This document shows, one piece after another, positions 30,733 to 51,467 of a stretch of DNA of 64,000 bases; within the stretch, counting starts at the first letter, position 1, and every line of letters begins with the position of its first letter. Both the position numbers and the translations under genes were made by a program. Under the pieces are notes generated by a model. The model was not told the origin of the DNA. It saw nothing but the letters and a program-made list of their open reading frames with translations, and did no database searches. The stretch is from an uncultured beta proteobacterium (GTDB lineage Bacteria > Pseudomonadota > Gammaproteobacteria > Burkholderiales > Burkholderiaceae_C), in contig CAVTXI010000019.1 of NCBI GenBank assembly GCA_963738615.1, forward strand, positions 154,771-218,770. Direction: 5' to 3'.

Positions 30733-32819
30733 TCACTTCGCTGCTTCGCCGAGCAGCGTCTTCAACGCCGCCTTCTGCGCCCCGCTGCCATCACGCGCGA
30801 TCTTCTGCACGAAGGCCGCGACCGACAGTTGCTGCATCTCGCCGGCCGAGCCGCCCAGCGCGCCAAGCAGATCCTTCAAGTCGCCGACCATGTCGCGTTC
30901 GCCGCTCAGGTGGTCCTTCAGCCCGACCTGCAGCGTGCGGCTGCGGTCGATCACACCGTCGATACCACGGCCGATCGACAGCGCTTTGACGAAGCGGTCG
31001 AAGTAGTCGCCCTCGCCGCCGACGATGTCGATCTTCGCGTTGGCCATCGCCTTGCCCAGCACCTCGGCCTGCTCGCGCGCGATGCCGGCCTGCGCGTCGA
31101 TGCCCTTCATCGTCTCGACGTGGTTGCGCTCGAGCGCCATGCGGTATTCCTCGTGCTGCCGCGTCTCGGCGCTCATCGACTTCATCGACTCGAACTTCTC
31201 GCGCAGGCCCTTCGCCTCGGCGCCGAACGCGCACTTCGATCTTGCGTGCTTCGGCTTCGCCCTGCTTGACCACGGCGTCGGCATCGGCCGCACGCACGTG
31301 CACGTCGGCCAGGCCGATCTTTTCCTTGCCTTCGGCTTCGGCCAGCATGCGCGCTTGCAGCACCTGCGCTTCGGCGGTGCCGACCTTGTGCTTGCCAACC
31401 GCTTCGGCTTCGCTGAGCGCCAGCTTCGCTTCGGCGCTGGCCTTCTGAACCTTCGCTTCGGCAAAACCAGGCGCGGCAGCGATCGCCTCGACACCTTCGG
31501 CTTCGCGCTTCTTCGCTTCGGCGTCGCGCTCGGCGACCTTGAGCTTGGCGTCGGCCAGCGTCACCTCTTCGGCCGCCTTGTGACGCGCGCGCTTTTCCGA
31601 TGCTTCGGCGGCCTTGACGTTCGATCACCATCTTTTCTTCGGCCTGCGCTTCGGCGTGGATCACCACGGCCTTGCGCGTGCGATCGGCTTCGGCCACCAC
31701 GCGCACTTCCTTGATCGCCTCTTCCTGTTCGGCGACCGTGCGCTCGACGACGATGCGCTCGCGGATCACGTCGGCGATCGCCTTCTTCTGCACCTCGACG
31801 GCCTTGTCCTTCTCGATGCGTTGCAGCGTCACCTCCTTCTCGCGGTCGACAATCTCGAGCTCGCGCGCCCGCGTCACCTTCTCTTCTTCGATCGCGACCG
31901 CGCGCTTGCGGTTGTTCTCGGCCACTTCCTTCTCGCGCAGCACGTTCTCCTGCTGCACCGTCACGAACTGCTCGGACTGCAGACGCGCGAGTTCGGCCTT
32001 GGTCTTCTCCTCGGCCTGGACCTTCTTGGTCTCGGCGTCTTCACGCGCGCGCACGGTCGCGATCTCGCGCCCCTGCTTCGCCTGCGCGTCGGCTGCCTGG
32101 CGCTCGAGCTCGAGCATCGTTTCCTGTGTCTCCACGTCCTTCTTCTTGATCTGCATCTCGCCGTTGCGGCGCAGCTCGTTGGTGCGCACGTGTTCGGTCG
32201 CGGTCAGCTCGGTGATCTTCCTGATGCCTTGCGCGTCGAGGATGTTGTTGGAGTCGAGCTTGCCGATCGGCGTCTGCTCGAGATAGTCGATCGCCGCGTC
32301 TTCGAGCACGTAGCCCGAAAGGTCGTCGCCGATCTGGCGAATGATTTCGTCGCGGAAACGATCACGCGCACCGTAGAGGTCGACGAAGTCCATCGACTTG
32401 CCCACCGTCTTCAGCGCTTCGGAGAACTTGGCCGAGAAGAGTTCTTCCAGCGTCTCCTGGCTCGACGCGCGTTCGCAGCCGATGCCCTGCGCCACCTTCA
32501 GCACGTCTTCGGCGGTTTTGTTGACGCGCACGAAGAACTTCACCTTGATGTCGGCGCGGATGTTGTCCTTGCAGATCAGGCCCTCGTTGCCCGAACGGTC
32601 GATCTCGACCGTCTTCAACGAGATGTCCATCAACTCGGCCTTGTGGATGATCGGGTAGACCATGCGGCCGGTGAAGGTCACCTCGGGCTCGGCGCGCAGC
32701 GTGTTGACGATCAGCGCGCGGCCCTGCTCGATCTTGCGATAGAACTTCGCGAACATCGCGAACAGGCCGAGGATCAGAAACGCCAGGATGCCGGCGGCGA
32801 CGAAGACGGTGGTGGTCAT
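30733..32819 (-). CDS. yqiK: flotillin-like SPFH/band-7 protein (YqiK-like; apparent frameshifts near 31200-31560)
   Basis: Start MTTTVFVAAGILAFLILG, an SPFH domain, a long E/A/K-rich coiled coil and a flotillin C terminus (GEGDYFDRFVKALS..LLGEAAK). Confidence 0.75.
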
Positions 32820-32883
32820 TGGGGGGGATCTCCTCCGGAAGGCGATGTGTCTCTTGGATATTGGGCACGCGCGCTGCGTCGCC

Positions 32884-33546
32884 TCAGCCTGGGTCGGTAT
32901 CGATGCGGTCGTCGATTCGGTAGCGCGCGGTGGCCGCGTCGTACTCGACGAGTCGCGCGCTCGAGCCGCGCGTGAAGGTGTTCGGCGTCGGCGCCCACAC
33001 GCGCACGTTGATCGCGGTGCCGCGCTGCTGCACTTCGGCGCGGCCGACCTTGTCATCGACGCTGCCGGTCACGACCTTGCACGCCAGGCCGACGAGCGAC
33101 GCGTTGGTCTTCGCGCCGTGGGTGACGAAGAGCGGGCGCAGCGGGCGCACCGCGCGCGCGGTGAGCACGATCGACAGTGCGACGGCGGCGAGCGCGATGC
33201 CGAGCCCGGCGGCGACTTGCAGCACGGTGGTCGGAATCATCGGCATCAGCCACGCACTCGCGATGCAGGCGAAGGTCCACGCGAAGAGCACGATCAGGCT
33301 CACGACGACCGAGAACGGCACGCCGTTCAGGCCCATTGCGACGACGTAACTCGCGAGCGTGCTGATCTCGCCGGCATCGCCGTCGACGTGCGTGTGGACG
33401 TCGGCATCGACATCGAAGTCGAGCCCGTGGTGCGTGAAGTCGACCAGGCCGATGATCGCAAGCGCCCAATAGAACAGCACGACGCCCAGCAGCGCCGTGA
33501 AGATGACCGTCGGGAAACCGAAGGCCGCAGCCAGAAATTCGCTCAT
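32884..33546 (-). CDS. yqiJ: NfeD-like membrane protein (YqiJ/DUF1449)
   Basis: 220 aa with several TM helices and a C-terminal OB-like segment, directly upstream of flotillin. Confidence 0.7.
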   Translation of the reverse strand: MSEFLAAAFGFPTVIFTALLGVVLFYWALAIIGLVDFTHHGLDFDVDADVHTHVDGDAGEISTLASYVVAMGLNGVPFSVVVSLIVLFAWTFACIASAWLMPMIPTTVLQVAAGLGIALAAVALSIVLTARAVRPLRPLFVTHGAKTNASLVGLACKVVTGSVDDKVGRAEVQQRGTAINVRVWAPTPNTFTRGSSARLVEYDAATARYRIDDRIDTDPG

Positions 33547-33651
33547 CGTTCAGCGCCTCTCGGGCATTGGACCAGACGGGCAGAGCAAGCGCCCACCCTG
33601 GCGGTGGTCATGCGCGGGTTCGTGCGATGGATCACGATCGGCCACCTCGCT

Positions 33652-34035
33652 TCATCGGTTCCCCCACGCTCGCTTCGCTCGCTGCCCCCGAGGGGGCTGG
33701 TCCGCCTTGGGAGCGGCCCGGCGGCGGACCGACCGGCGTGTCGCAGCCGCCGCAGCGGGCGCGGCGCGTGCGGCCTTCGCCTGCGGCGCTGCCGCCTTCG
33801 CGGCCTGCTTGTTCGCGAAGCGGATCAGCTCGTCGGTGACGCGCTCTTTGATGCCGAGGCGATCTTCAGCCGGCATGCGGTAGCGTTGGCCGAGCACGTC
33901 GTAGTCCTGCGCGGACAGCGTCACCGTCAAGCGGGGCCGCTTCGCCTTGTGAACCGTCGGCAGGCCCAGCAGCAGGCGGATCTGGTCTGACGTTGACACA
34001 TCGTTGAGGAAGGCCGCGGCGCGCACGGCTTCCAT
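33652..34035 (-). CDS. hypothetical small protein (start uncertain)
   Basis: Open frame between the pspA-like and yqiJ genes; Ala-rich C terminus; weak support. Confidence 0.25.
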   Translation of the reverse strand: MEAVRAAAFLNDVSTSDQIRLLLGLPTVHKAKRPRLTVTLSAQDYDVLGQRYRMPAEDRLGIKERVTDELIRFANKQAAKAAAPQAKAARAAPAAAAATRRSVRRRAAPKADQPPRGQRAKRAWGNR

Positions 34036-34126
34036 CACCGCGGCTTCGACGTCGAACGCGACCTGCACCGCACGCAGCGCTTCGTCGGACCCGGTCCAGC
34101 GTGCCGGCTTCGTTCGCAACACGGTT

Positions 34127-34888
34127 TCAGGACCCGGTCTTGCCCGCCGATGCCTCGTCGCCGCCAGTGGGTGCCTCGCCCTTCGCGGCAGATGCGGCAG
34201 ATGCGGCACGCGCGCGAATGCGGTCGAGCACCTGGCGCTTGCGGTCGGCGTCGGGGCCGATGCCGGCGTCGTGCAGCTTGCGCTCGAGCGCTGCCGAGCC
34301 AACTTCTTGTTCCAGTTCTTCGGCCGCGGCCATGCGGTCGGCCAGATCGATGTGGCGCTGGCGGATGCGCTCGAGCGATTCCTTGGCGCTGGTCAGCTTC
34401 GACGTGCCGCCGACCAGGTTGTCGGAGATCGACTGCGTGGCGCGGTAGACGCTTTCGGTGGTCTGCGCCATGGCCAGTTCGCGCTCGTGTTCGCGGATGC
34501 GTGCTTCGGCCGCCTTGATCAGGTCCTTCAGCCGCTGCACTTGAACCGAATAGCTCGCGTGCGCCTTGGCCTGCTCGTCGAGCTGGGCTTCGACTTCGGC
34601 GACCTTCGCCGCGACCTCTTCGGCCAGGCTTTCCTTCGACTTGTCGAGCGCCTCGATCGCCAGCGCCTCGTAGCGCGCGGCTTCGCCCTTCAGGCGTTCG
34701 ATCTCGCGTGCGCTTTGCATCTGCTTGGCCATCACGGCGGTCAGTTCGCCGCGCGCCTGTTCGATGTGGTGCTTCGCGTCGAGGATCTCCTGCTCGTAGA
34801 TGCGCGCGCTGTTGGCGTCGACGACGCTGTCGCCGATCTCGCGCACGCTGCCGCGCAGCAGGGTCACCAGCTTCTTGATCACGGACAT
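34127..34888 (-). CDS. PspA/IM30 family protein (YjfJ-like)
   Basis: 253-aa coiled-coil protein with the PspA-family signature N terminus (MSVIKKLVTLLRGSVREIGDSVVDANSARIYEQEILDAKHHIEQAR). Confidence 0.85.
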   Translation of the reverse strand: MSVIKKLVTLLRGSVREIGDSVVDANSARIYEQEILDAKHHIEQARGELTAVMAKQMQSAREIERLKGEAARYEALAIEALDKSKESLAEEVAAKVAEVEAQLDEQAKAHASYSVQVQRLKDLIKAAEARIREHERELAMAQTTESVYRATQSISDNLVGGTSKLTSAKESLERIRQRHIDLADRMAAAEELEQEVGSAALERKLHDAGIGPDADRKRQVLDRIRARAASAASAAKGEAPTGGDEASAGKTGS

Positions 34889-34922
34889 GGGGTTCTCCTG
34901 GAACGTCGGAAGTGGGTCGGGT

Positions 34923-35339
34923 TCAGACGAGGAATTCGGCCATCGCCTCGAGCGCGTCGATCGCGTTGTCGCTCAGCACGGCGATGTCCTGCGCGACATC
35001 GGCCGCCGACGCGTCGCGACGCAACGCGCCGTAGAGCACGTAGCGGTCACCGACGCGGCCGAAGGACGACAGCGGCACCGCGGGGTTGAGGTCGAGCAGC
35101 GTGGACTGAAGCTCGGCGCGGCGCGCGGGCTGCACTTCGGCCTCTTTCCAGAGGTGGCACAAGCACAGGATCTGCATGTCGGAGCCGGTCACGAAGATCG
35201 GCAGTTCTTCACGGCCCTCGATGCTGAGCTGCACCACCGGCACGCGCCCGGGGATCGGCTGCAACTGCACCTGAAGGCCGCCCATCGCCTGGCCGACCAG
35301 CGCGTCGAGGCCGTTCAACTGCTCGAGCAAAGGCTTCAT
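34923..35339 (-). CDS. YjfI-like DUF2170 protein
   Basis: 138 aa immediately upstream of the PspA-like gene, as in the yjfI-yjfJ arrangement. Confidence 0.6.
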   Translation of the reverse strand: MKPLLEQLNGLDALVGQAMGGLQVQLQPIPGRVPVVQLSIEGREELPIFVTGSDMQILCLCHLWKEAEVQPARRAELQSTLLDLNPAVPLSSFGRVGDRYVLYGALRRDASAADVAQDIAVLSDNAIDALEAMAEFLV

Positions 35340-35502
35340 GCGTCACCCTCCTTGGCAGCCGCCGTGCGCCCGAGAGTGGGTCGCCGGCATCGACATATCA
35401 TGTCGATATCGGCATGTTATGTCCGACGGACATTTCATGTCAAGCGGTGTCGAGCGGTCGCAGCAGCATTCGTCCCGCAAGCGGGCGAGGGAGCTGACCG
35501 CT

Positions 35503-36813
35503 CTACCGGATCCGCCGCGCCTCGACGTAGAACCGCTTCTCGTGCGCCTCGCCCATCGAGAAGGTCTTGCGCGGCAGCGGCCCTTCGCGCACGACCATGC
35601 TCAGCAGCTCGCGCTTGCCGATCGGCGCCAGGTGGATGCCGACGCATCCATCCTGCATGGCCAGGCGCTCGAGCACGTCGTCGCCGTGCACGTAGTCGAC
35701 ATGGGTTGCGCCGCCCTGCCCGATCAGCTTGTCGACGACCGGTTGCAGCGTGCCGACCGCGAGGGTGGACGGCGGCTCGGCGATCTCGATCAGGGTGAAG
35801 CGCGGGCCCGGCCCGATCAGCCCGGCGGCGTGATGCGTGCCACCCGCCGCCGCCAGCACGCGATCGCGTAGAGCGCTGGCCGAAGGCACCTCGGTGCACG
35901 TCAGGCGTGCGCCGAACGTGTCGGCGAACGCGCGGCGCACGTCGGCGTGCACGCCGAACAGCACGCGATGGATCGGCTCGAACTCGAGCGCCGGGTCGTG
36001 GATGTTCTCGACTTCGACGAGCGCCCAGCGGCTGGGGTGCTGCATGCCCACCGTAGCCTTCACGCGCTCCCAGATCGCCTTGGCGGTGGCGAGCGAATGG
36101 TTGCCGTCACCGACGGCGAACAGCATCGGTGGCGTGTCGGGCGGCACGCCGTAGCGCGCTGCGAAGGTCGCCGCATGGCCCATTGCCCGCAGCGCCTGCA
36201 TGGCGCGCTCGATCGGCGCGCTGTCCACGGCGTAGCCCGCGACGTGCCCGCCGCCCTGCATCAGGTCGGTCGCATAGAGCCGCTTCAGCGCATCACGCCC
36301 CGCGGCGATCGGCTCGATCACCGTTCGATCGGGGTCGTCGATCAGCACCAGGATGTGCGGCAGCTCGAGCTCGGCGCCGCTGCGCACGGCCATCCGCGGC
36401 GCGAGCCGCTCGACGATCGTGCCTTCGGTCGGGCGGATCAGGCTTGTCGACCCGGGACGGAAGTCGTAGTGCTCGAGGTCGAGCTCGAGCATCAGGCCGC
36501 GGCGGGTTCGACCGCCGAGCGTGCGCTCGACGAGGATCGCGCCGTCATGCTCGACCAGCAGCCCTTCGTCGAGGTACCTGCGCATCGTCTGCTGGATGCG
36601 CGCGATGCGCGAAGGTGCGTCGGCCGCCCCGAGGAACGCTTCGGGGAAGATCAGGCGCAGGGTCGATGGCGCGCTGCCAACGTCACGCTCGACGCGGTGC
36701 CAGTAGTCGGGCTCGGACGTGTACTGGTCGCACGCCACGACCGCCCACTTCGCGAGGTCGATGCCGGGCCGCGGCAGGTGCACGCGCGGGAGGCGAAAGC
36801 CGGTTGTTTCCAT
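35503..36813 (-). CDS. DUF1015 family protein
   Basis: Internal start METTGFRLPRVHLPRPG of the longer ORF; about 437 aa with DUF1015 family motifs. Confidence 0.65.
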   Translation of the reverse strand: METTGFRLPRVHLPRPGIDLAKWAVVACDQYTSEPDYWHRVERDVGSAPSTLRLIFPEAFLGAADAPSRIARIQQTMRRYLDEGLLVEHDGAILVERTLGGRTRRGLMLELDLEHYDFRPGSTSLIRPTEGTIVERLAPRMAVRSGAELELPHILVLIDDPDRTVIEPIAAGRDALKRLYATDLMQGGGHVAGYAVDSAPIERAMQALRAMGHAATFAARYGVPPDTPPMLFAVGDGNHSLATAKAIWERVKATVGMQHPSRWALVEVENIHDPALEFEPIHRVLFGVHADVRRAFADTFGARLTCTEVPSASALRDRVLAAAGGTHHAAGLIGPGPRFTLIEIAEPPSTLAVGTLQPVVDKLIGQGGATHVDYVHGDDVLERLAMQDGCVGIHLAPIGKRELLSMVVREGPLPRKTFSMGEAHEKRFYVEARRIR

Positions 36814-36839
36814 AGCCGATGCTATGCCGGCCACGCGCG

Positions 36840-37173
36840 ATGACCGAACGACCCGACCTGTTCGCCGCCGTCGTGCCGCAGCTCGGCGCGCTCGACGCGG
36901 TACGCGATGATGCTCTGCATCACGCGCGGCGCTGACGAGCGGCACGCCGAGCGTGACCGGGTTGACGACGGCGGGATGCACGATGCGCACCAGCTCGCGC
37001 TTGGACTGCTTCAGCAGCAGCAGTCGGGCCGATCTTGATGCCGCCGCCGGTCGAACCCGCGCAGGTCGCGAAGCGCCCAGCAGGATGATCAGCAGCGACG
37101 CGAACATCGGCCAGCGGCCGTAGTCGTAGGTCGTGTAGCCGACGCGGCCGGCGCCGAGGATGACGATGTTCAT
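36840..37173 (-). pseudogene. trkH/ktrB-like potassium transporter gene fragment
   Basis: About 110 codons encoding a pore-loop region (..CAGSTGGGIKI.. then RLLLLKQSKRELVRIVHP after a frame change); TerC ends at 37194, so no room for the remaining ~350 aa. Confidence 0.55.
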
Positions 37174-37193
37174 TGGGCCTTGCGCGCCGTCCG

Positions 37194-37967
37194 CTACTCG
37201 AGCTTCTGCGCCGCCGACGGCGTGTCGGCCGCCTCGTACGGGCTGTGCAGGTCGACCACCTTCTTCGCGCGCTTGCGCATGCTGATGTTCAGCATCTCGA
37301 CCCCGAGCGAGAACGCCATCGCGAAGTAGACGTAGCCTTTGGGCACGTGGTGGCCGAAACCTTCGGCGATCAGCACCACGCCGACGACGACGAGGAACGA
37401 CAGCGCGAGCATCTTGATCGTCGGGTGGTCGGAGACGAAGCGGCCGATCGGGCTGGCGAAGAGCATCATCAGGGCCACCGACGCGATCACCGCGGCGATC
37501 ATCACGCGCACGTCGTCGACCATGCCCACCGCGGTGATGATCGAGTCGAGCGAGAAGACCAGGTCGATGATCATGATCTGAAGGATGACCGCACCGAAGG
37601 TGGCCTTGACCGCCGCCGCAGCGTGGCCCTCCTCGCCTTCCATCGAGCCGTGGATCTCGGTCGTGCTCTTCCACACCAGGAACAGCCCGCCGAGGATCAG
37701 GATCAGGTCGCGGCCCGAGATCTCCTGCCCGAACACGGTGAACAGCGGCTTCACCAGCCCGACGATCCACGCCAGGACGAGCAGCAGGCCGATGCGCATG
37801 AACATCGCCATGAACAGGCCCAGGCGTCGCGCCTTCTCGCGATGCTCTTTCGGCAGCTTGTCGACAAGGATCGAGATGAAGATGATGTTGTCGATGCCCA
37901 GCACCAGCTCGAGTAGGGTGAGGGTGGCGAAGGCGATCCAGGCTTCGGGGGAGGTCAGCAGTTCCAT
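37194..37967 (-). CDS. TerC family integral membrane protein
   Basis: 257 aa with conserved TerC blocks (LELVLGIDNIIFISILV, paired acidic residues in TM helices). Confidence 0.85.
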   Translation of the reverse strand: MELLTSPEAWIAFATLTLLELVLGIDNIIFISILVDKLPKEHREKARRLGLFMAMFMRIGLLLVLAWIVGLVKPLFTVFGQEISGRDLILILGGLFLVWKSTTEIHGSMEGEEGHAAAAVKATFGAVILQIMIIDLVFSLDSIITAVGMVDDVRVMIAAVIASVALMMLFASPIGRFVSDHPTIKMLALSFLVVVGVVLIAEGFGHHVPKGYVYFAMAFSLGVEMLNISMRKRAKKVVDLHSPYEAADTPSAAQKLE

Positions 37968-38129
37968 CGTGTGCTCGGGATGTGGCCGTTGGCCGGGTTC
38001 GAACGGACCGTGATGTTCGCCTTGGAACGCAACCGCGTTTGTAGGCGCAGTCCGATTCCCGCAGGCGGTGTTGGGGCTTGCCGTATCAGGCCAGCACCTA
38101 AGATCGCGACACGATAACGGAGACCCCCG

Positions 38130-39482
38130 ATGACCTCAGCGCTCGCGACGAATCGACCCGACCAAATGATCAACGCCAGGGCGCACCCGCGCCCTGGACT
38201 CGGCACCAGCACACGGCGCGACTGGTTGCGTCGCGGATGCGCCGCCAGTGCGGCCGTCTTCGGCACGCTGGCACTGAGCGCGGGTTGCGCGATGGCGCCG
38301 ACGGCCCGCACCGGCATCGATGCCGCGCCGCTGGACGCGTTCATGCGGCGCGTGGAACAGGACGTGCAAGCCGGCGTGGTGCCGGGCGCGGTGCTGCTGG
38401 TCGCGCGCGACGGTCAGGTGCTGTATCGCAAAGCCGTGGGTCGCCAGGACCCGGGCGGCAGCGCGCCGATGGCGGCGGACTCGATGTTTCGCATCTACTC
38501 GATGACCAAACCCATCGTGTCGGTCGCGGCGATGAGCCTGATCGAGGAAGGGCGCATGTCGCTCAACGACCCGGTGTCGCGCCACCTGCCGCAACTGACG
38601 AAGCTGCAGGTCGGCGTGGAGAAGCCGGGCGCCGACGGCAAGCCTGTGCTGGAACGCGTGCCTTCGCAACGCGACATGACCGTGCACGACCTGATGCGGC
38701 ACATGTCGGGCATGACGTACGGCGCGTTCGGCCGCTCGCTGGTGAAGGACGAATACAACAAGGCCGGCGTATCGCCAGGCGGCCCCGACATCGACTACGA
38801 CAACGCCGAACTGGTGAAGCGCGTGTCGCAGCTGCCGCTGTCGTATCAGCCGGGCAGCACGTGGGAATACAGCATCTCGACCGACATCCTCGGCGCGCTG
38901 GTCGAGAAGGTGGCTGGTGCGCCGCTCGACGAGGTGCTGCGTCGGCGCGTGCTGGGGCCGCTGAAGATGAACGACACGTCGTTCTCGGTGCCGGCCGACA
39001 AGCAGGGCCGCATTGCCGAGCCCTTCGCGACCGACCCCGACAGCAAGCAGGCGGTGAAGCTCTTGGACATCCGCCGCGTGCCGAAGCTGCTGGCCGGCGG
39101 CGCGGGCCTGGTGTCCACCGCCGACGACTACGCGCGCTTTGCGCAGATGCTGGCCAACGGCGGCACGCTCGACGGCACGCGAGTCTTGTCGCGCCAGTCG
39201 GTGCAGTGGATGACAAGCGACCACACCAGCGGCGTGCGCGGGCCGGCCTACGCACCCGGCCCGGGCTACGGCTTTGGCCTGGGCGTTGCGATGCGGCTGG
39301 ACAACGGCCAGTCGGTCTTGCCCGGGAACAAGGGCGACTTCCACTGGGGCGGTTACGCCGGCACCTTCTGGTGGCACGACCCGGCCGAGCGCCTGGTGGC
39401 GGTGTGGATGATTCAAGGGCCGGGGCGCAGCGCGTACTTTCGGCCGCTGATGCGCTCAGCGGTGTATTCGTCATTGAACTGA
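38130..39482 (+). CDS. serine hydrolase, class C beta-lactamase/esterase family, Tat signal
   Basis: S-x-x-K motif SMTKP, YxN-type downstream motifs, RRDWLRRGCAASAAVFG Tat-like signal. Confidence 0.8.
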   Translation: MTSALATNRPDQMINARAHPRPGLGTSTRRDWLRRGCAASAAVFGTLALSAGCAMAPTARTGIDAAPLDAFMRRVEQDVQAGVVPGAVLLVARDGQVLYRKAVGRQDPGGSAPMAADSMFRIYSMTKPIVSVAAMSLIEEGRMSLNDPVSRHLPQLTKLQVGVEKPGADGKPVLERVPSQRDMTVHDLMRHMSGMTYGAFGRSLVKDEYNKAGVSPGGPDIDYDNAELVKRVSQLPLSYQPGSTWEYSISTDILGALVEKVAGAPLDEVLRRRVLGPLKMNDTSFSVPADKQGRIAEPFATDPDSKQAVKLLDIRRVPKLLAGGAGLVSTADDYARFAQMLANGGTLDGTRVLSRQSVQWMTSDHTSGVRGPAYAPGPGYGFGLGVAMRLDNGQSVLPGNKGDFHWGGYAGTFWWHDPAERLVAVWMIQGPGRSAYFRPLMRSAVYSSLN

Positions 39483-39534
39483 TGCGCGCACCGAGCACAC
39501 GAGAATCCGGCCTACCGAAGCTTCGGGAGCGACC

Positions 39535-40644
39535 ATGACGATCACGCTCTTGCACGATCAGCGCGAAACCGCACACGCCGACAGCGCCGCCCACGGCGAT
39601 GAACTTTGGCTTGACGCCGCGGCCGTCGAAGCGGCGACGGGTTGGTTGTGGAAGCCCCAGGGCTTGTGCCACGGCGACATCTGCGTGCCGTTGCCTGCAG
39701 GGTCGAAGCACGAACTGGTTCGCGACAACCAGTTGAACATCGCGGCCACGTGGCGCCGCAGCGGTCAGCCCGTGGTGCATGACGCCGCTTCGCGCGTGTG
39801 GGTTCTGGGCACCGGGGCCGCGCAACGCGGCGCGGCGCTCGCGACGTTGATCGCACCCGACTTCGAGTTACCCGACCTCACAGGCCGGATTCATCGGTTG
39901 TCGCAATACCGAAGTCGCAAGGTCCTCTTACTCACCTGGGCCAGTTGGTGCGGGTGTCGCCTGGATCTGCCGGTGTGGCAGTCGGTGATGGAAGAACTGC
40001 AAGGTGAGCGCGCCAGCGAGGGCTTCACGATCGTCGCCGTGGCGCTGGACCATGCCGACGCGGCGCGGCCGTGGATCGAAGCCGCCAAACCCACCTACCC
40101 CTGCCTGATCGACCGCGACCATCACGTTGCGGACCTCTACAACATCGTCAACGTGCCGCAGGCGGTGTGGATCGACGAAGCCGGCCGCATCGTGCGGCCT
40201 CCCGAGACGGCAGGCTCGACCGACAGCTTCCGCTCGATGGACCGCACGACCGGCGCCATGCCCGAGGCGCAGAACGTCGAACGCGCGCGCACGAAGGCGC
40301 TGTACCTGGACGCCGTGCGCGATTGGGTGCGGCGCGGCGCGGCGAGCGCCAACGCGTTAAGTGCGCATCAAGCAGCGGCCAAGGTCGAGATTCCCGACGA
40401 CGCGATCGCCGAAGCGCACGCGCGGTTTCGTCTGGGCCAAGTCCTCGTGGGACGAGGCCAAGCCGACGAAGGCCGGGCGCAGATCGCACGCGCGACCGAG
40501 CTGCATCCGGACTCATGGGCGATGTGGCGAATGGCGGCGGCGAAGAACGAGCGTGGGCTCGCAGCGTCGGAGGCGTTCTGGGAGCGGGTCGATGCGCTGG
40601 GTGGGCGGCCGTACTACCGCTTGGCGGAGGTGGTCGGGTCGTAG
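39535..40644 (+). CDS. thioredoxin-fold (TlpA/redoxin-like) protein with N-terminal extension
   Basis: WASWCGCR active-site-like W-C-x-x-C in a thioredoxin-fold context. Confidence 0.55.
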   Translation: MTITLLHDQRETAHADSAAHGDELWLDAAAVEAATGWLWKPQGLCHGDICVPLPAGSKHELVRDNQLNIAATWRRSGQPVVHDAASRVWVLGTGAAQRGAALATLIAPDFELPDLTGRIHRLSQYRSRKVLLLTWASWCGCRLDLPVWQSVMEELQGERASEGFTIVAVALDHADAARPWIEAAKPTYPCLIDRDHHVADLYNIVNVPQAVWIDEAGRIVRPPETAGSTDSFRSMDRTTGAMPEAQNVERARTKALYLDAVRDWVRRGAASANALSAHQAAAKVEIPDDAIAEAHARFRLGQVLVGRGQADEGRAQIARATELHPDSWAMWRMAAAKNERGLAASEAFWERVDALGGRPYYRLAEVVGS

Positions 40645-40686
40645 GGGTAGCGGACGAGCAACCGGTCTGTCGCCCGCCGTGTGCGG

Positions 40687-41817
40687 TCAATCGAGTGTCT
40701 TGCGCCGGTTGACCCAGTTCTGAAACTCTGCGTCCTCGAAGCGATAGACGCCGTGATCGAGCTTGGCCATCACCAGCCGCGCTGGCGAGGTCAGCCGGCG
40801 CAGCGCGTTCCGCGGCGTGCTTGGCACAACGCCGGGCTCGCCCAGGATCGACGAAAGCTGCTGCAATGTGGCGGCGCTGAAGAAATCCTGGGTTCCGCGC
40901 GCTGCCAACAGCAGGACCGCGCGGTCGGCACGATGCAGTTGCCTCCACAGCTTGCCGTACCCGGCGTCATCGCTGACCGTCGCTCGGGTGTACTCGAGGG
41001 CTTCGTCGACCCCCTGCTGCTGGTACATGAGATAGCGTTCGAGGAAGCGGCGGAAGAACTCAGGGGTCTCCTCGAGTGCCTTGAACGCTGCCAGAGCTGC
41101 GTCCACCGCCAGCGGCCGTTTGGCCACGGCTGCGGTCTGTTTCACCATGGCCTGGACGAACTCGGCACCGAGCAACGGGAAGGGTTCGAGCGGCGCCCAG
41201 TTGAAGAAGGGTGCGGCTGCGCGAGAGAACATCTCTCGCAGCGCCGCCTCGGATGAACCCGCGAACAGCACCTTGATGAATGCCTTGCGGGTATCCAACC
41301 CGGCACGCAACGCGCGGGCTACGCCTTTGTGCTCTGGCGCCGTAAGTACCTGCGCTTCGTCGATGACCAGCAGGAGAGGCTTCTTCTTCGACTTGTCGGC
41401 GGCCTGCAGGGCCGCCTGGATCGCCGGCACCGCGAGTTTCTCCTTGTCGGCGAGGTCGATCTCCAGCGACCCCTCCAGTCCCAGAGGAGCGACCTTTCCG
41501 CCGCCCTTCAGCTTCTTCACGGGCGCGTTCAGGCTCTGCCAGAACTTCGCAACTCCCCGCGCCGCAACCGCCTCGACGAGGGCTGCGGCGATCGCCTGGC
41601 CCGGGTGATCGGCGTCTTCCCACAGGTTCACATAGGCCGTCCGGTAGCCCGCGTTGCGAGCGGCCGGCAGCATGTCGCGGCTGAGGAACTGCGTCTTTCC
41701 CATGCGGCGCCGGGCGAACAGGCCGCGCGCTGACGTGAGGCCAAGCGAGAAGCCCTGGAGATAGGCTTGGGCGAGCTCGGGGCGCGCGTAGTGCCAGGGG
41801 TCGTCGCTCTGCATCAT
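40687..41817 (-). CDS. ATPase_2 (archaeal-type AAA) family ATP-binding protein
   Basis: P-loop FARRRMGKTQFL of the G/A-RRR-x-GKT type, Walker B LLLVIDEAQ, about 376 aa. Confidence 0.7.
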   Translation of the reverse strand: MMQSDDPWHYARPELAQAYLQGFSLGLTSARGLFARRRMGKTQFLSRDMLPAARNAGYRTAYVNLWEDADHPGQAIAAALVEAVAARGVAKFWQSLNAPVKKLKGGGKVAPLGLEGSLEIDLADKEKLAVPAIQAALQAADKSKKKPLLLVIDEAQVLTAPEHKGVARALRAGLDTRKAFIKVLFAGSSEAALREMFSRAAAPFFNWAPLEPFPLLGAEFVQAMVKQTAAVAKRPLAVDAALAAFKALEETPEFFRRFLERYLMYQQQGVDEALEYTRATVSDDAGYGKLWRQLHRADRAVLLLAARGTQDFFSAATLQQLSSILGEPGVVPSTPRNALRRLTSPARLVMAKLDHGVYRFEDAEFQNWVNRRKTLD

Positions 41818-41934
41818 GTGCCGATTTTGGCACTGATTTCCAGATCTTTGCTAATTGGCAAAGTGGTGGAAAAGAGTGCCAAAACTCGTCTCGGCTCGTG
41901 TCAGACGAAGCGAGGTGCAGTCGCGATCAACAGC

Positions 41935-42060
41935 GCAAGCCGCTGGAAGCGGGCGACCTGGGCGTTGATGCGTTCGAACTGCGCGTTGCGGTCCGGGTGC
42001 ACGGTGCCTTCGAGCGTCTTGCGGTTGCCCTGCCGCCTAAGGTGCTCATGCACCTTGATC
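41935..42060 (-). pseudogene. ISAzo13-family transposase fragment (about 40 codons)
   Basis: Minus-strand translation VHEHLRRQGNRKTLEGTVHPDRNAQFERINAQVARFQ carries the HPDR(D/N)AQFE(H/R)IN motif of ISAzo13 DDE transposases; no flanking IS body. Confidence 0.45.
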
Positions 42061-42081
42061 CTTACGGCAGTCTGCCGTAAG
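42061..42081 (+). promoter_or_regulatory. perfect 10-1-10 palindrome CTTACGGCAG-T-CTGCCGTAAG upstream of the DUF1778 antitoxin (candidate TA operator)
   Basis: Seen directly; lies about 20 nt before a GGAGG RBS and the ATG at 42101. Confidence 0.55.
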
Positions 42082-42100
42082 ATTCCCAGCGGAGGTCATC

Positions 42101-42379
42101 ATGGCAACCGATCAGATCGCACGCCTCGAAGCTCGACTGCCGGCCAGCGTGTACGCCCTGCTGAAGCGCGCGGCCGAGCTGAAGGGGCGCAGCATCACCG
42201 ATTTCGTCGTCAGTGCGGCTCAGGACGCAGCCCAACGTGCGATCGAAGACGACGGGATCATCCGCCTGTCCGCGGAAGATCAGCGACGCTTCGCCGAAGC
42301 ACTCATCCGGCCGCCGGCACCGAACGCGGCATTGAAGCGTGCCATGCGCCGCCACGCCAAGAACGTCGAGGTGCGGTGA
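42101..42379 (+). CDS. DUF1778 family antitoxin (TacA/KacA-like RHH)
   Basis: 92 aa MATDQIARLEARLPASVYALLKRAAELKGRSITDFVV..; the GNAT toxin gene overlaps its stop. Confidence 0.75.
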   Translation: MATDQIARLEARLPASVYALLKRAAELKGRSITDFVVSAAQDAAQRAIEDDGIIRLSAEDQRRFAEALIRPPAPNAALKRAMRRHAKNVEVR

Positions 42380-42891
42380 CAGCTTTCTTCTCGGAAGCCC
42401 TCGGCAAGCAAGATCGTTCCGCTTTCGCCAGCGGCAACGATCGCATCGACACCTACTTCGGGCAGACGGTCTCGCAGGACGTGAAGCGCGACTACGCCGC
42501 GTGCTACGTGCTCATCGAAAGGGCGAGCGCGAAGATCGCCGGCTTCTACACGCTGTCGTCGCACAGCATCCCGCTCATCGAACTGGCACCTGACGTGGCC
42601 CGCAAGCTGCCGCGCTACCCGAGCGTGTCGGCCGTGCTGATCGGCTGGCTCGGCCGCGACGCGAGCTTTCGCGGGCAGCATGTCGGCCCCATGCTCCTGG
42701 CCGACGCGATCACGCGGCTTGCCGCGGCGCCGATGGGCCTGCACGCGATCTGCGTCGACGCCATCGACGACGCGGCCGCGGCCTTCTACCGCGAGCACCA
42801 GTTCCAGCCCTTTGTCAGCCGACCGAACGCTTTCTATCTGTCGATGAAGACGGCGCTTTTGCTGGTGGCGAAGGGGCCGCGCAAGTCGTGA
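42376..42891 (+). CDS. GNAT-family acetyltransferase toxin (TacT/KacT/AtaT-like)
   Basis: GTG start overlapping the antitoxin stop (GTGA); an acetyl-CoA-binding Q/R-x-x-G-x-G/A-like segment (RGQHVGPMLL) in about 171 aa. Confidence 0.7.
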   Translation: MTAFFSEALGKQDRSAFASGNDRIDTYFGQTVSQDVKRDYAACYVLIERASAKIAGFYTLSSHSIPLIELAPDVARKLPRYPSVSAVLIGWLGRDASFRGQHVGPMLLADAITRLAAAPMGLHAICVDAIDDAAAAFYREHQFQPFVSRPNAFYLSMKTALLLVAKGPRKS

Positions 42892-42930
42892 TGCGAACCC
42901 AACGCGCGCCGGAGCGCGCCTCTCACGCAT

Positions 42931-42958
42931 GAAAAAGCCGGCCCTCTCGGGCCGGCTT
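42931..42958 (-). terminator. rho-independent terminator of rpoC, bidirectional with the toxin gene
   Basis: Stem AGCCGGCCC-TCTC-GGGCCGGCT with a U-tract on the minus strand (aaaaag on plus). Confidence 0.7.
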
Positions 42959-42996
42959 TGCGCTGATGGACGCGACTCGTAGCGTCGCGTTGGACA

Positions 42997-47315
<4,319 letters not shown>

Positions 47316-47336: not shown

Positions 47337-51467
<4,131 letters not shown>

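What the first reader, a model, noticed from the sequence alone, without database searches (positions are those of the whole stretch)
40687..42922. Accessory patch abutting the rpoC terminator: ATPase_2 gene, ISAzo13 transposase relic, and DUF1778-GNAT toxin-antitoxin pair with a perfect palindromic operator
Immediately 3' of rpoC, separated only by a bidirectional hairpin terminator at 42931-42958, sits a TacAT-type module. The antitoxin stop overlaps the toxin GTG start. It is preceded by the 10-1-10 palindrome CTTACGGCAGTCTGCCGTAAG. A 40-codon fragment with the HPDRNAQFERIN motif of ISAzo13 transposases lies just upstream, and then an ATPase_2-family gene with an ARRRMGKT P-loop. The transposase scrap suggests the TA and ATPase arrived by transposition and the IS later decayed. 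GNAT toxins of this class acetylate aminoacyl-tRNA.
Basis: partly seen in the sequence, partly recalled or inferred. Interest (0 to 1): 0.55.

Follow-up and report, generated by a model that had tools for sequence, protein, structure and literature searches.

The report
Toxin–antitoxin cassette beside rpoC
Just downstream of the RNA polymerase gene rpoC sits an ordinary, intact-looking TacAT/KacAT-type toxin–antitoxin pair with its conserved operator, next to a dead scrap of an ISAzo13 insertion sequence and a separate ATPase gene; it most likely got there by recombination, not by transposition.

Summary
All the described features are real. The pair is a DUF1778/RHH antitoxin (42101-42379) and a GNAT toxin (42376-42891, GTGA overlap). 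Both are homologous to the solved TacAT, AtaRT and KacAT proteins. The catalytic Tyr and the DNA-reading Arg residues are conserved.

The palindrome's core is TACGG-N7-CCGTA, the same half-site and spacing as the crystallised KacA operator. In about 1.3 Mb of fetched loci it occurs 15 times, always directly upstream of a DUF1778 gene.

The ISAzo13 scrap is genuine at both protein and nucleotide level, but only 38 codons are homologous.

The ATPase has Walker A and B motifs and belongs to the ATPase_2/Orc-Cdc6-like AAA+ clade. It scores below Pfam's cut-off.

The arrival story is not supported. Relatives carry rpoC followed by the same ATPase with no TA pair and no IS scrap. In one of them the ATPase cassette is 1199/1200 identical inside flanks with about 12-19% mismatches. 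A 1.4-kb block (last ~340 nt of rpoC, TA pair, IS scrap) is 94-99% identical to a contig whose rpoC core is only ~76% identical. The IS scrap was already truncated before that exchange.

Verdict: a new member of a known kind, in a recombination-prone spot. Interest is low.

The parts
40687..41817 (-). Stand-alone AAA+ P-loop ATPase (376 aa) of the ATPase_2/Orc1-Cdc6-like clade. Walker A is A35-T42 (ARRRMGKT); Walker B is D153-E154. A separate cassette, not part of the TA block.
   Evidence: 31 of 40 diverse relatives hit PF01637. A profile of the family hits 2fna. The best Foldseek hits of the model are 2qen and 2fna, then ORC/Cdc6.
40643..41842 (.). Tract of near identity (1 mismatch in 1200 nt) to contig L003, whose flanks show about 12-19% mismatches. 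This marks a recently exchanged ATPase cassette.
41825..41884 (.). 60-nt imperfect palindrome upstream of the ATPase start, built from TGCCAA/TTGGCA and TTTCCA/TGGAAA half-sites. Candidate operator or promoter region of the ATPase gene.
   Evidence: 30-nt arms, 80% complementary. (fold z-score -7.7). Conserved at sequence level in L003, L004, L108, L109 and L110.
41902..41939 (.). Short spacer between the IS relic and the ATPase upstream region. 41902-41928 matches L110 at 24 of 27 positions and probably derives from the older intergenic region. Homology to L003 resumes at about 41904.
41940..42053 (-). ISAzo13-family transposase relic: 38 homologous codons, matching positions about 131-168 of a 387-residue profile. 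No IS ends and no catalytic domain.
   Evidence: A longer 91-92-codon version in L009 hits PF07592 at E=1.7e-33 and has 72-75% nucleotide identity to annotated ISAzo13 genes.
42055..42083 (+). Inferred TA promoter: -35-like TTGATC (42055-42060), 17-nt spacer, -10-like TAAGAT (42078-42083). The operator fills the spacer.
   Evidence: Read from the sequence. The same TTG...TAnnnT frame surrounds the palindrome in homologous loci. The consensus scan did not call it because it matches only 8 of 12 positions.
42061..42081 (.). Operator palindrome CTTACGGCAG-T-CTGCCGTAAG, with core TACGG-N7-CCGTA at 42063-42079.
   Evidence: The KacAT crystal operator is GTACGG-TTATTAA-CCGTAC (PMC6698736).
42101..42379 (+). 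RHH/DUF1778 (TacA1) antitoxin, 92 aa. GGAGG ribosome-binding site at 42091-42095. DNA-reading residues R8, E10 and R12. C-terminal PPAPNAALKRAM toxin-binding motif.
   Evidence: (matches to TacA, KacA and AtaR chains, E 2e-9 to 2e-5)..
42376..42891 (+). GNAT toxin of the TacT/AtaT/KacT type, 171 aa, GTG start. Catalytic Tyr is Y138. AcCoA loop is R99-G104.
   Evidence: PDB matches, E 8e-14 to 5e-8. (1069 homologues). (invariant Y138, G100 and G104).
42934..42959 (.). GC-rich hairpin (8 G-C pairs, 4-nt loop). Intrinsic terminator of rpoC (U5 on the minus strand) that also faces the TA operon (U3 on the plus strand).
   Evidence: The same hairpin occurs in L109, which has no TA pair.
41939..43338 (.). 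1.4-kb shared block (IS relic, TA operon and the last ~340 nt of rpoC). It is 94-99% identical to contig L009, apart from the 42939-43138 intergenic region and rpoC tail at 83-87%. Identity falls to 75-77% in rpoC beyond 43339.

Best explanation
Positions 42055-42891 are a self-contained type II toxin-antitoxin operon of the GNAT/RHH (TacAT-AtaRT-KacAT) family.

Inferred mechanism, by homology:
- The RHH antitoxin, alone and more tightly as an antitoxin4-toxin2 complex, binds the TACGG-N7-CCGTA operator. The operator fills the spacer between the -35 and -10 elements, so the operon represses itself.
- The antitoxin's C-terminal tail blocks the toxin's acetyl-CoA site.
- When the antitoxin is depleted, the toxin acetylates the amino group of charged tRNA and stops translation.

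The neighbours are separate things:
- The ISAzo13 scrap is a dead passenger.
- The ATPase, with its own palindromic upstream region, is an independently exchanged cassette of unknown function.

Inferred history: the block 'rpoC 3' end + terminator + TA + IS scrap' moved between lineages by recombination, with one end anchored in conserved rpoC and the other joined illegitimately. It was not moved by transposition. The interval between rpoC and the ATPase is a hypervariable spot.
For: Identity of the TA pair:
- Pfam TacA1, E=3.6e-26.
- PDB sequence matches to TacT/AtaT/KacT-type toxins, E down to 8e-14.
- PDB sequence matches to TacA/KacA/AtaR antitoxins, E down to 2e-9.
- The 4-nt GTGA overlap and the GGAGG ribosome-binding site.
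- Y138 aligns with the Tyr whose Y140F change abolishes TacT toxicity.
- R8 and R12 align with KacA R8 and R12, which are essential for operator binding.

Operator:
- Same half-site and 7-nt spacing as the crystallised KacAT operator.
- Kept in 11 of 12 TA loci, down to 50% antitoxin identity and in a paralogue with 30% toxin identity, despite unrelated flanks.
- Occurs once in the window against 0.01 expected.
- 15 of 15 occurrences in 109 loci (about 1.3 Mb) lie directly upstream of DUF1778 genes.
- In L011/L013 a stop at antitoxin codon 18 goes together with a degenerate right half-site.

History:
- L003 and L110/L111 have rpoC followed by the ATPase without TA or IS.
- The window is 94-99% identical to L009 over 41939-43338, then 75-77%.
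- The IS relic has the same TA-proximal truncation in L009 and L010.
- The ATPase tract is 1199/1200 identical to L003 with sharp boundaries.
- rpoC-derived scraps lie in this interval in L009, L108 and L109.
Against: - Nothing has been tested experimentally.
- The toxin's GNAT Pfam hits are below threshold (19.5 and 17.5 bits).
- The toxin departs from residues that are at least 90% conserved in its clade at P85S, A127V and P156S. Position 4 of the AcCoA loop is His, not Gly, although that is the clade consensus. Reduced toxicity is therefore possible.
- The history rests on short metagenomic contigs. The homologous breakpoint near 43339 in L009 could be an assembly chimera, and the direction of each indel (gain or loss) is not resolved.
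- L110 looks like a GATC-microhomology deletion of a window-like state, so loss as well as gain occurs.
- The window assembly itself carries indel errors in rpoB and rpoC.
Confidence: 0.78

Rival explanations
1. One reading: an ISAzo13 element, or a composite of two, carried the TA pair and the ATPase to the rpoC terminator by transposition and later decayed to a scrap.
For: A genuine ISAzo13 fragment abuts the TA promoter. The three features are adjacent. All have homologues in varied contexts elsewhere.
Against: - rpoC followed by the ATPase exists without TA or IS in L003 and L110/L111.
- TA homologues elsewhere have no IS scrap, and homology to them begins exactly at the promoter/operator.
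- The relic is an internal 38-codon piece with no IS end. It shares its TA-proximal breakpoint with L009 and L010.
- The shared block includes about 340 nt of rpoC, which transposition would not carry.
- The ATPase tract has its own separate boundaries.
Confidence: 0.08
2. The TA pair is a decaying or domesticated copy. The toxin is attenuated or inactive, and the locus persists mainly as an autoregulated RHH repressor or a neutral remnant.
For: - The window toxin carries P85S, A127V and P156S at positions that are at least 90% conserved. P85 is also Pro in the aligned TacT and 9ilr chains.
- The closest relative, L110/L111, lacks the module, so loss is tolerated.
- A clearly decaying homologue exists in L011/L013.
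Against: - Both ORFs are intact in an assembly that otherwise shows frequent indels.
- The catalytic Y138 and the glycines G100 and G104 are kept.
- The operator is perfect.
- The S85 variant also occurs in P0130 and S156 in P0122, so these may be lineage variants.
Confidence: 0.12
3. The GNAT protein is not an aminoacyl-tRNA acetylase. It acts on another substrate, for example the antitoxin itself or a regulator, as reported for the PacTA system of Pseudomonas aeruginosa.
For: - The substrate cannot be read from the sequence.
- The literature shows TacT acetylates TacA (PMC5449658, title and abstract).
- PacTA obstructs DNA binding by Fur (PMC9561280, title and abstract).
Against: All structurally matched relatives (TacT, AtaT, KacT) are described as tRNA acetylases (PMC4942678, PMC6698736, PMC6125619). 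Extra substrates do not exclude the tRNA activity.
Confidence: 0.05
4. The apparent mosaicism (shared 1.4-kb block, identical ATPase in diverged flanks, rpoC scraps) is an artefact of metagenome assembly chimeras across conserved rpoC or identical gene sequence.
For: - L003, L009, L108 and L109 are short metagenomic contigs.
- Both ends of L009 lie in rpoC.
- The window itself has assembly indels.
Against: - Junctions with no shared sequence cannot be produced by k-mer overlap: IS relic::rpoC remnant, rpoC fragment::TA#2 promoter, and IS relic::ATPase upstream.
- The window's IS-ATPase junction is reproduced at 100% identity in an independent sample, L001.
- The TA-IS junction is reproduced in L009 and L010.
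- The TA-less state is seen in three independent contigs: L003, L110 and L111.
Confidence: 0.1

Closest known systems
KacAT of Klebsiella pneumoniae (PDB 5ZGN/5XUN; PMC6698736)
   Same: - Antitoxin-first bicistron of an RHH/DUF1778 antitoxin and a GNAT toxin.
- Antitoxin R8 and R12 conserved (D10 is E10 here).
- C-terminal PPAPN..LKRA motif conserved.
- Operator core TACGG-N7-CCGTA is identical in half-site and spacing to the crystallised 27-bp operator.
   Different: - Low sequence identity (phmmer E=1.4e-8 for the toxin, 8e-9 for the antitoxin).
- The central 7 nt are GC-rich (CAGTCTG) rather than AT-rich (TTATTAA).
- Conditional cooperativity and the heterohexamer are untested here.
TacAT (T8) of Salmonella enterica (PDB 5FVJ, 7AK7-9; PMC4942678)
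   Same: GNAT toxin whose catalytic Tyr (Y140 in TacT, Y138 here) is needed for toxicity. Pairs with a DUF1778 antitoxin. The expected activity is acetylation of aminoacyl-tRNA.
   Different: Different host (an uncultured Burkholderiales bacterium, 66% G+C). The tRNA specificity is unknown, and no link to persistence has been shown.
AtaRT of E. coli O157:H7 (PDB 6AJM, 6GTS and others)
   Same: Both proteins match by sequence (toxin E about 6e-11, antitoxin about 1e-7). AtaRT is also a heterohexamer bound to a palindromic operator (as described in PMC6698736).
   Different: AtaT targets initiator Met-tRNAfMet (my own knowledge, not tested here). No inference on the target is possible for this toxin.
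ISAzo13 family insertion sequences (PF07592, NF033519)
   Same: 38 codons, including HPDRNAQFE, match the family profile. There is 76-79% nucleotide identity to annotated transposase genes.
   Different: About 10% of a transposase, with no DDE catalytic region and no ends. It is a relic, not an element.
ATPase_2 'archaeal ATPase' family (PF01637; structures 2QEN and 2FNA) and Orc1/Cdc6 AAA+ proteins
   Same: Walker A and B motifs, an AAA+ core followed by a helical and probably winged-helix C-terminus, similar length (350-380 aa). These are the top sequence-profile and fold hits.
   Different: - The window protein is below the Pfam cut-off (16.4 bits against 33.2).
- TM-scores are only about 0.34, from a model with mean pLDDT 68.
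- It belongs to a distinct bacterial family (1052 representatives at E up to 0.001) with its own conserved palindromic upstream region.
- Function is unknown.
Homology-facilitated illegitimate recombination (described for natural transformation in Acinetobacter; my own knowledge, not retrieved here)
   Same: One junction lies in conserved homologous DNA (rpoC). The other is non-homologous or uses microhomology (IS relic::rpoC remnant in L009; GATC in L110). Displaced scraps of the anchor gene are left behind.
   Different: Inferred from static haplotypes only. The transfer route and direction are unknown.

Membership tests
GNAT/RHH (DUF1778) type II toxin-antitoxin family (TacAT/AtaRT/KacAT) | Antitoxin-first bicistronic operon with closely coupled ORFs | tested here: met
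   Antitoxin 42101-42379 and toxin 42376-42891 share a 4-nt GTGA overlap. The same arrangement occurs in all homologous loci.
GNAT/RHH (DUF1778) type II toxin-antitoxin family (TacAT/AtaRT/KacAT) | Antitoxin with an N-terminal ribbon-helix-helix and a DUF1778/TacA1 domain | tested here: met
   PF08681, 91.4 bits against a cut-off of 21. Matches KacA, TacA and AtaR chains. R8 and R12 are conserved.
GNAT/RHH (DUF1778) type II toxin-antitoxin family (TacAT/AtaRT/KacAT) | Toxin with a GNAT fold, an AcCoA-binding loop and the catalytic Tyr | tested here: met
   phmmer against the PDB finds 16 TA-type GNAT toxins, E from 8e-14 to 4e-4. Y138, G100 and G104 are invariant in the clade. Caveat: the generic Pfam GNAT models are below cut-off, and loop position 4 is His.
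GNAT/RHH (DUF1778) type II toxin-antitoxin family (TacAT/AtaRT/KacAT) | Palindromic operator in the promoter that is recognised by the RHH domain | tested here: met
   This was tested at sequence level only. TACGG-N7-CCGTA equals the KacA operator core, is conserved across loci and is specific to DUF1778 upstream regions. Binding itself was not testable.
GNAT/RHH (DUF1778) type II toxin-antitoxin family (TacAT/AtaRT/KacAT) | Toxin arrests growth and the cognate antitoxin neutralises it | not testable with these tools
   This needs expression assays.
GNAT/RHH (DUF1778) type II toxin-antitoxin family (TacAT/AtaRT/KacAT) | Acetylation of aminoacyl-tRNA | not testable with these tools
   Inferred from homologues only (PMC4942678, PMC6125619).
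ISAzo13 insertion sequence | Significant similarity to the family's transposase | tested here: met
   PF07592 at 27.6 bits (cut-off 26.9). NF033519 at E=2.9e-7 (fragment only, far below its full-length cut-off of 200). tblastn E=4e-6 and blastn E=3e-10 to annotated genes.
ISAzo13 insertion sequence | Complete DDE transposase ORF | tested here: not met
   Only 38 homologous codons, matching profile positions about 131-168 of 387.
ISAzo13 insertion sequence | Terminal inverted repeats and a target-site duplication | not tested
   No ISfinder end sequences were available. The relic is internal, so ends are not expected.
ATPase_2 (PF01637) | Score at or above the Pfam gathering threshold | tested here: not met
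   16.4 bits against 33.2 for the window protein. However, 31 of 40 diverse relatives match at E below 0.01, best 3.5e-11.
ATPase_2 (PF01637) | Walker A and Walker B motifs of a P-loop/AAA+ core | tested here: met
   G40, K41, D153 and E154 are invariant in 40 diverse relatives.
ATPase_2 (PF01637) | Fold like the solved family members 2QEN and 2FNA | tested here: inconclusive
   They are the two best Foldseek hits (E=1.5e-4 and 3.4e-4), but TM is about 0.34 and the model's mean pLDDT is 67.9. A profile of the family hits 2fna at E=6e-4.
Rho-independent (intrinsic) terminator | GC-rich hairpin followed by a U-tract on the transcribed strand | tested here: met
   This is met for the rpoC strand: an 8-bp GC stem plus U5, and the two-hairpin region folds at -43.1 kcal/mol with z-score -5.3. 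On the TA strand there are only three U, so it is weaker. The consensus scan missed it because the A/U pairs were absorbed into the stem.

The most novel reading that the evidence does not exclude
The 1.4-kb block is a minimal hitch-hiking unit: a TA cassette physically coupled to a replacement copy of the last ~340 nt of the essential gene rpoC. It would spread between distantly related Burkholderiales by recombination with one end anchored in rpoC. Each event would restore an intact rpoC and leave the recipient's old rpoC 3' end, or other rpoC scraps, behind, as seen in L009, L108 and L109. The addictive TA pair would then help fix the imported rpoC allele. This would make the rpoC 3' end a recurrent, integrase-free landing pad for TA modules.
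Probability: 0.2. Interest if true: 0.55.

Novelty: new member of a known kind. Interest (0 to 1): 0.22.

Why it matters
The TA module itself adds little. It is one more TacAT/KacAT-type pair. The useful side result is that the KacA-type operator core TACGG-N7-CCGTA is conserved well beyond enterobacteria, so it can serve as a sequence signature for this antitoxin clade.

The more interesting point is evolutionary. The interval downstream of an essential, highly conserved gene behaves as a hypervariable landing spot. Small cassettes (the TA pair, the ATPase) are swapped there by recombination rather than by the IS whose scrap lies there.

This is also a caution against reading an adjacent transposase fragment as the vehicle of its neighbours.

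Tried and rejected
- Consensus promoter scan: found nothing in 40500-43100. The TA promoter matches only 8 of 12 positions, so the promoter is inferred from its conserved position, not from the scan.
- Terminator scan: missed the rpoC hairpin. I folded the region directly instead.
- PADLOC: no defence-system match for the TA proteins, and only noise for the ATPase. A defence-system reading was dropped.
- Exact look-up of the antitoxin: not on record.
- Genome-contig scan with the neighbouring redoxin/TPR protein, meant to recover synteny: it returned 80 species representatives of at most 75% identity. None has rpoC, the ATPase or the TA pair within 10 kb, so it gave no information on the ancestral state.
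- Metagenome-contig scan with the toxin: only 7 loci. These were useful for the operator but not for context.
- Rfam: only the tRNAs, with no RNA family in the patch. Both arms of the 60-nt palindrome are conserved at sequence level with no compensatory changes noticed by eye in the upstream sequences (no pair count was run), so I read it as DNA sites rather than a structured RNA.
- ATPase structure model: mediocre (mean pLDDT 68), so I give the fold matches only supporting weight.
- Cluster look-up: returned no organism names.


Full report
**1. Check of the observation**

The region was read directly and its ORFs listed.

- The antitoxin ORF (42101-42379, +, 92 aa) has a GGAGG ribosome-binding site 5 nt upstream.
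- Its TGA stop overlaps the GTG start of the toxin ORF (42376-42891, +, 171 aa) as GTGA.
- The 21-nt palindrome CTTACGGCAG-T-CTGCCGTAAG lies at 42061-42081. It is perfect and unique in the window, with none found in 100 shuffles. It is one of only three perfect palindromes with arms of at least 10 nt in the 64 kb.
- On the minus strand, ORF 41901-42053 reads MHEHLRRQGNRKTLEGTVHPDRNAQFERINAQVARFQR...
- ORF 40687-41817 encodes a 376-aa protein with ARRRMGKT (Walker A) and LLLVIDEAQ (Walker B).
- rpoC ends at 42997-42999 (minus strand).
- A hairpin with arms 42934-42944 and 42949-42959 lies between the two convergent stop codons.

**2. The toxin-antitoxin pair**

The antitoxin matches PF08681 (TacA1) at 91.4 bits against a cut-off of 21. 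Against PDB sequences it matches the TacA, KacA and AtaR antitoxins, with E from 2e-9 to 2e-5.

The toxin's generic GNAT Pfam hits are below threshold. Against the PDB, however, it matches 16 chains. All those that can be identified are TA-type GNAT toxins (TacT 5FVJ/7AK8, AtaT 6AJM/6GTS, KacT 5ZGN/5XUN), with E from 8e-14 to 4e-4.

Conserved functional residues:

- In an alignment of 25 relatives, Y138, G100 and G104 are invariant.
- Y138 aligns with the Phe of the crystallised TacT Y140F mutant. Y140F and A93P each abolish TacT toxicity (PMC4942678).
- Antitoxin R8, E10 and R12 align with KacA R8, D10 and R12. KacA R8 and R12 are essential for operator binding (PMC6698736).
- The C-terminal PPAPNAALKRAM matches the toxin-binding tail of KacA and TacA.

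The family is large. There are 1069 homologues at E up to 1e-3, and many are 70-95% identical in environmental Burkholderiales.

Caveats: the window toxin differs from residues conserved in at least 90% of its clade at P85S, A127V and P156S. The fourth position of the AcCoA loop (R99-G-Q-H-V-G104) is His, although His is the clade consensus.

**3. The operator**

The crystallised KacAT operator is 5'-AAATGTACGGTTATTAACCGTACATGA (PMC6698736 methods). Its core is TACGG-N7-CCGTA. The window palindrome has the same core and the same spacing: TACGG-CAGTCTG-CCGTA at 42063-42079.

I collected homologous TA loci from unrelated genomic contexts.

- 11 of 12 keep TACGG-N7-CCGTA. This includes loci with only 50-67% antitoxin identity, and a second paralogous pair in L009 with 30% toxin identity.
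- The core always sits between a TTG-containing -35-like hexamer and a TAnnnT -10-like hexamer, 27-56 nt before the start codon.
- In the window these hexamers are TTGATC (42055-42060) and TAAGAT (42078-42083), with 17-nt spacing.
- The one exception (L011/L013) has a degenerate right half-site together with a stop at antitoxin codon 18.

Specificity:

- The pattern occurs once in the window, against 0.01 expected.
- It occurs 15 times in the 109 fetched loci (about 1.3 Mb).
- Every one of those occurrences is directly upstream of a DUF1778 gene.

This is strong comparative support for an operator. Binding itself is inferred.

**4. The IS scrap**

- PF07592 gives 27.6 bits (cut-off 26.9), and NF033519 matches at positions 131-165 of 387.
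- tblastn against plasmids hits annotated ISAzo13 transposases, E=4e-6.
- blastn gives 76-79% identity over about 80 nt, E=3e-10.
- Contig L009 carries a longer version (91-92 codons) that is 98% identical to the window over the shared part. That version hits PF07592 at E=1.7e-33 and has 72-75% nucleotide identity over 253 nt to annotated ISAzo13 genes.

Only 41940-42053 (38 codons) is homologous. It is an internal piece without ends.

**5. The ATPase**

The window protein scores below threshold for AAA_22, AAA_14 and ATPase_2 and matches nothing in NCBIfam.

It belongs to a large family of proteins about 370 aa long:

- 857 hits in the word-indexed search, with the 120 best listed at 64-100% identity. 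The few named ones come from Rhodoferax and Polaromonas.
- 1052 cluster representatives in the exhaustive search.

Evidence for its clade:

- Of 40 diverse members, 39 match AAA_14, 34 match AAA_22 and 31 match ATPase_2, best E=3.5e-11.
- A family profile finds 2FNA, the archaeal AAA+ ATPase SSO1545, at E=6e-4.
- An AlphaFold model (mean pLDDT 67.9) has 2QEN and 2FNA as its best Foldseek hits, followed by ORC/Cdc6. TM-scores are only about 0.34.

'ATPase_2-like AAA+ with a C-terminal helical or winged-helix part' is therefore a fair description. Strict Pfam membership is not met, and the function is unknown.

In other genomes the gene stands alone in unrelated neighbourhoods.

Upstream of the gene lies a 60-nt imperfect palindrome at 41825-41884 (fold z-score -7.7).

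- It is built from TGCCAA/TTGGCA and TTTCCA/TGGAAA half-sites.
- These are conserved at sequence level in relatives.
- A -10-like CAAAAT or CAGAAT sits 6-7 nt before the ATG, with no Shine-Dalgarno sequence. This suggests a leaderless, autoregulated gene, which is inference only.

**6. How the patch was assembled**

Six haplotypes of the interval between rpoC and the ATPase were recovered.

- (a) L001 and L002 match the window. L001 is 100% identical across the IS-ATPase junction and comes from an independent sample.
- (b) L110 and L111 are the closest relatives (97.6% over window 30740-41888).
  - They lack the TA pair, the IS scrap and the terminator.
  - Their rpoC loses its last 7 codons and reads on into other sequence.
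  - The junction is at a GATC, and the next 27 nt match window 41928-41902 at 24 of 27 positions.
  - The simplest reading is a microhomology deletion of a window-like arrangement.
- (c) L003 has the rpoC stop, 73 nt, the palindrome, then the ATPase, with no TA pair and no IS scrap.
  - Against the window, there is 1 mismatch in 40643-41842 (1200 nt).
  - There are 10 mismatches in each of the adjoining 52-80 nt.
  - The rpoC tail is 89% identical.
  - The ATPase cassette has therefore been exchanged recently between diverged backgrounds.
- (d) L109 has the same terminator hairpin but no TA pair. It carries about 780 nt that include a scrap of the rpoC 3' end.
- (e) L108 has a MarR/HTH-like gene plus an internal rpoC scrap.
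- (f) L009 and L010 have the same TA pair (95.6% identical) and the same IS relic with an identical TA-proximal breakpoint.
  - In L009 the relic runs to codon 92 and is fused in frame to a second, older copy of the rpoC 3' end, which is 82% identical to the functional copy.
  - A DUF4124 gene follows, then a second TacAT-like pair and another rpoC fragment.

Sliding identity between the window and L009 is 94-99% over 41939-43338, except 83-87% across 42939-43138 (the intergenic region and the rpoC tail). It drops abruptly to 75-77% in rpoC beyond 43339.

TA homologues at 85% identity or less are elsewhere in the genome and have no IS scrap. Their homology to the window begins exactly at the operator, position 42062.

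Conclusions from this comparison:

- The TA+IS block and the ATPase are separate units.
- The IS was already a relic when the block last moved.
- The block includes the rpoC 3' end, which points to recombination anchored in rpoC with an illegitimate second junction.
- The whole interval is a hypervariable spot where both gain and loss occur.

The main weakness is the reliance on short metagenomic contigs. Junctions with no shared sequence cannot arise from k-mer chimeras, but the homologous breakpoint near 43339 could.

**7. Terminator**

On the rpoC strand there are two hairpins. The second has a GCCGGCCC/GGGCCGGC stem, a 4-nt loop and UUUUU, a canonical intrinsic terminator. The region folds at -43.1 kcal/mol with a z-score of -5.3. 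On the TA strand the same hairpin is followed by only UUU. 'Bidirectional' is therefore only partly apt. L109 shows that the hairpin belongs to rpoC rather than to the TA cassette.

**8. Comparison with known systems, and verdict**

The module passes every sequence-testable membership criterion of the GNAT/RHH type II TA family and shares the KacA operator core. Toxicity, neutralisation and tRNA acetylation cannot be tested here.

It is a new member of a known kind. The IS scrap is a relic of a known family. The ATPase is an uncharacterised member of a known clade.

Its history (joint arrival by transposition) is not supported.

Interest is low. The only mildly novel aspect is the rpoC-anchored exchange of small cassettes.

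**9. Data quality**

rpoC is split over three reading frames by two single-base indels, near 45020 and 44290, and rpoB is also split. These are most likely assembly errors. The ORFs of the patch are intact. The ATPase and the IS junction are confirmed by an independent contig.

Noticed in passing
window 44285-44300 and 45015-45025 (rpoC); about 49890-50060 (rpoB): rpoC is split across three reading frames by two single-base indels, and rpoB is also broken. Several other genes in the window look split as well. These are most likely indel errors of a long-read assembly rather than pseudogenes.
   Followed up: partly
window 41825-41884: A 60-nt imperfect palindrome lies upstream of the ATPase (30-nt arms, 80% complementary, fold z-score -7.7). 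It is made of TGCCAA/TTGGCA and TTTCCA/TGGAAA half-sites that are conserved in relatives. A -10-like CAAAAT sits 6 nt before the ATG with no Shine-Dalgarno sequence, suggesting a leaderless, autoregulated gene.
   Followed up: partly
window 40643-41842 against L003: The ATPase cassette is 1199/1200 identical to a contig that has 10 mismatches in each adjoining 52-80 nt of flank (about 12-19%). The boundaries of the recombination tract are sharp.
   Followed up: yes
L110:1-450 and L111:1-310 (GCA_965188475.1; Logan ERR14374329): The closest relatives (97.6-98% identity) lack the TA pair, the IS scrap and the terminator. Their rpoC loses the last 7 codons and gains a 24-residue foreign tail (…GGDHDRTTLRLAGG…). 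The junction is at GATC microhomology, which looks like a deletion of a window-like state.
   Followed up: partly
L009:1-291, L009:1991-2262, L108:421-501, L109:620-658: Scraps of rpoC (internal and 3'-terminal) are scattered in the interval downstream of rpoC in three relatives. In L009 one scrap is fused in frame to the ISAzo13 relic. The same L009 contig also carries a second, distant TacAT-like pair (367-1117).
   Followed up: partly
L011:4717-5004 and L013: In a TA homologue with 82% toxin identity, the antitoxin has a TAG at codon 18, which removes the RHH strand, and the operator's right half-site is degenerate (CCGCC). This may be co-decay of the repressor and its site.
   Followed up: no
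window 42963-42998: A second hairpin overlaps the rpoC stop codon, upstream of the terminator hairpin. It is partly conserved in L003.
   Followed up: no
window 4478-4497 and 47847-47868: These are the only other perfect palindromes in the window with arms of at least 10 nt: GCAGCCGCTCGAGCGGCTGC and CGCGAAGGGCACGCCCTTCGCG.
   Followed up: no
window 42376-42891 (toxin residues 85, 127, 156): The toxin has Ser, Val and Ser where at least 90% of its clade has Pro, Ala and Pro. P85 is also Pro in the aligned TacT and 9ilr chains. The toxin may be attenuated.
   Followed up: partly
window 39535-40644: The redoxin/AhpC-TSA + TPR gene next to the ATPase has homologues of 54-75% identity in Burkholderiales, Rokubacteria and Myxococcus. 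None of the 80 loci fetched has rpoC within 10 kb, so the gene order downstream of rpoC is specific to this lineage.
   Followed up: yes
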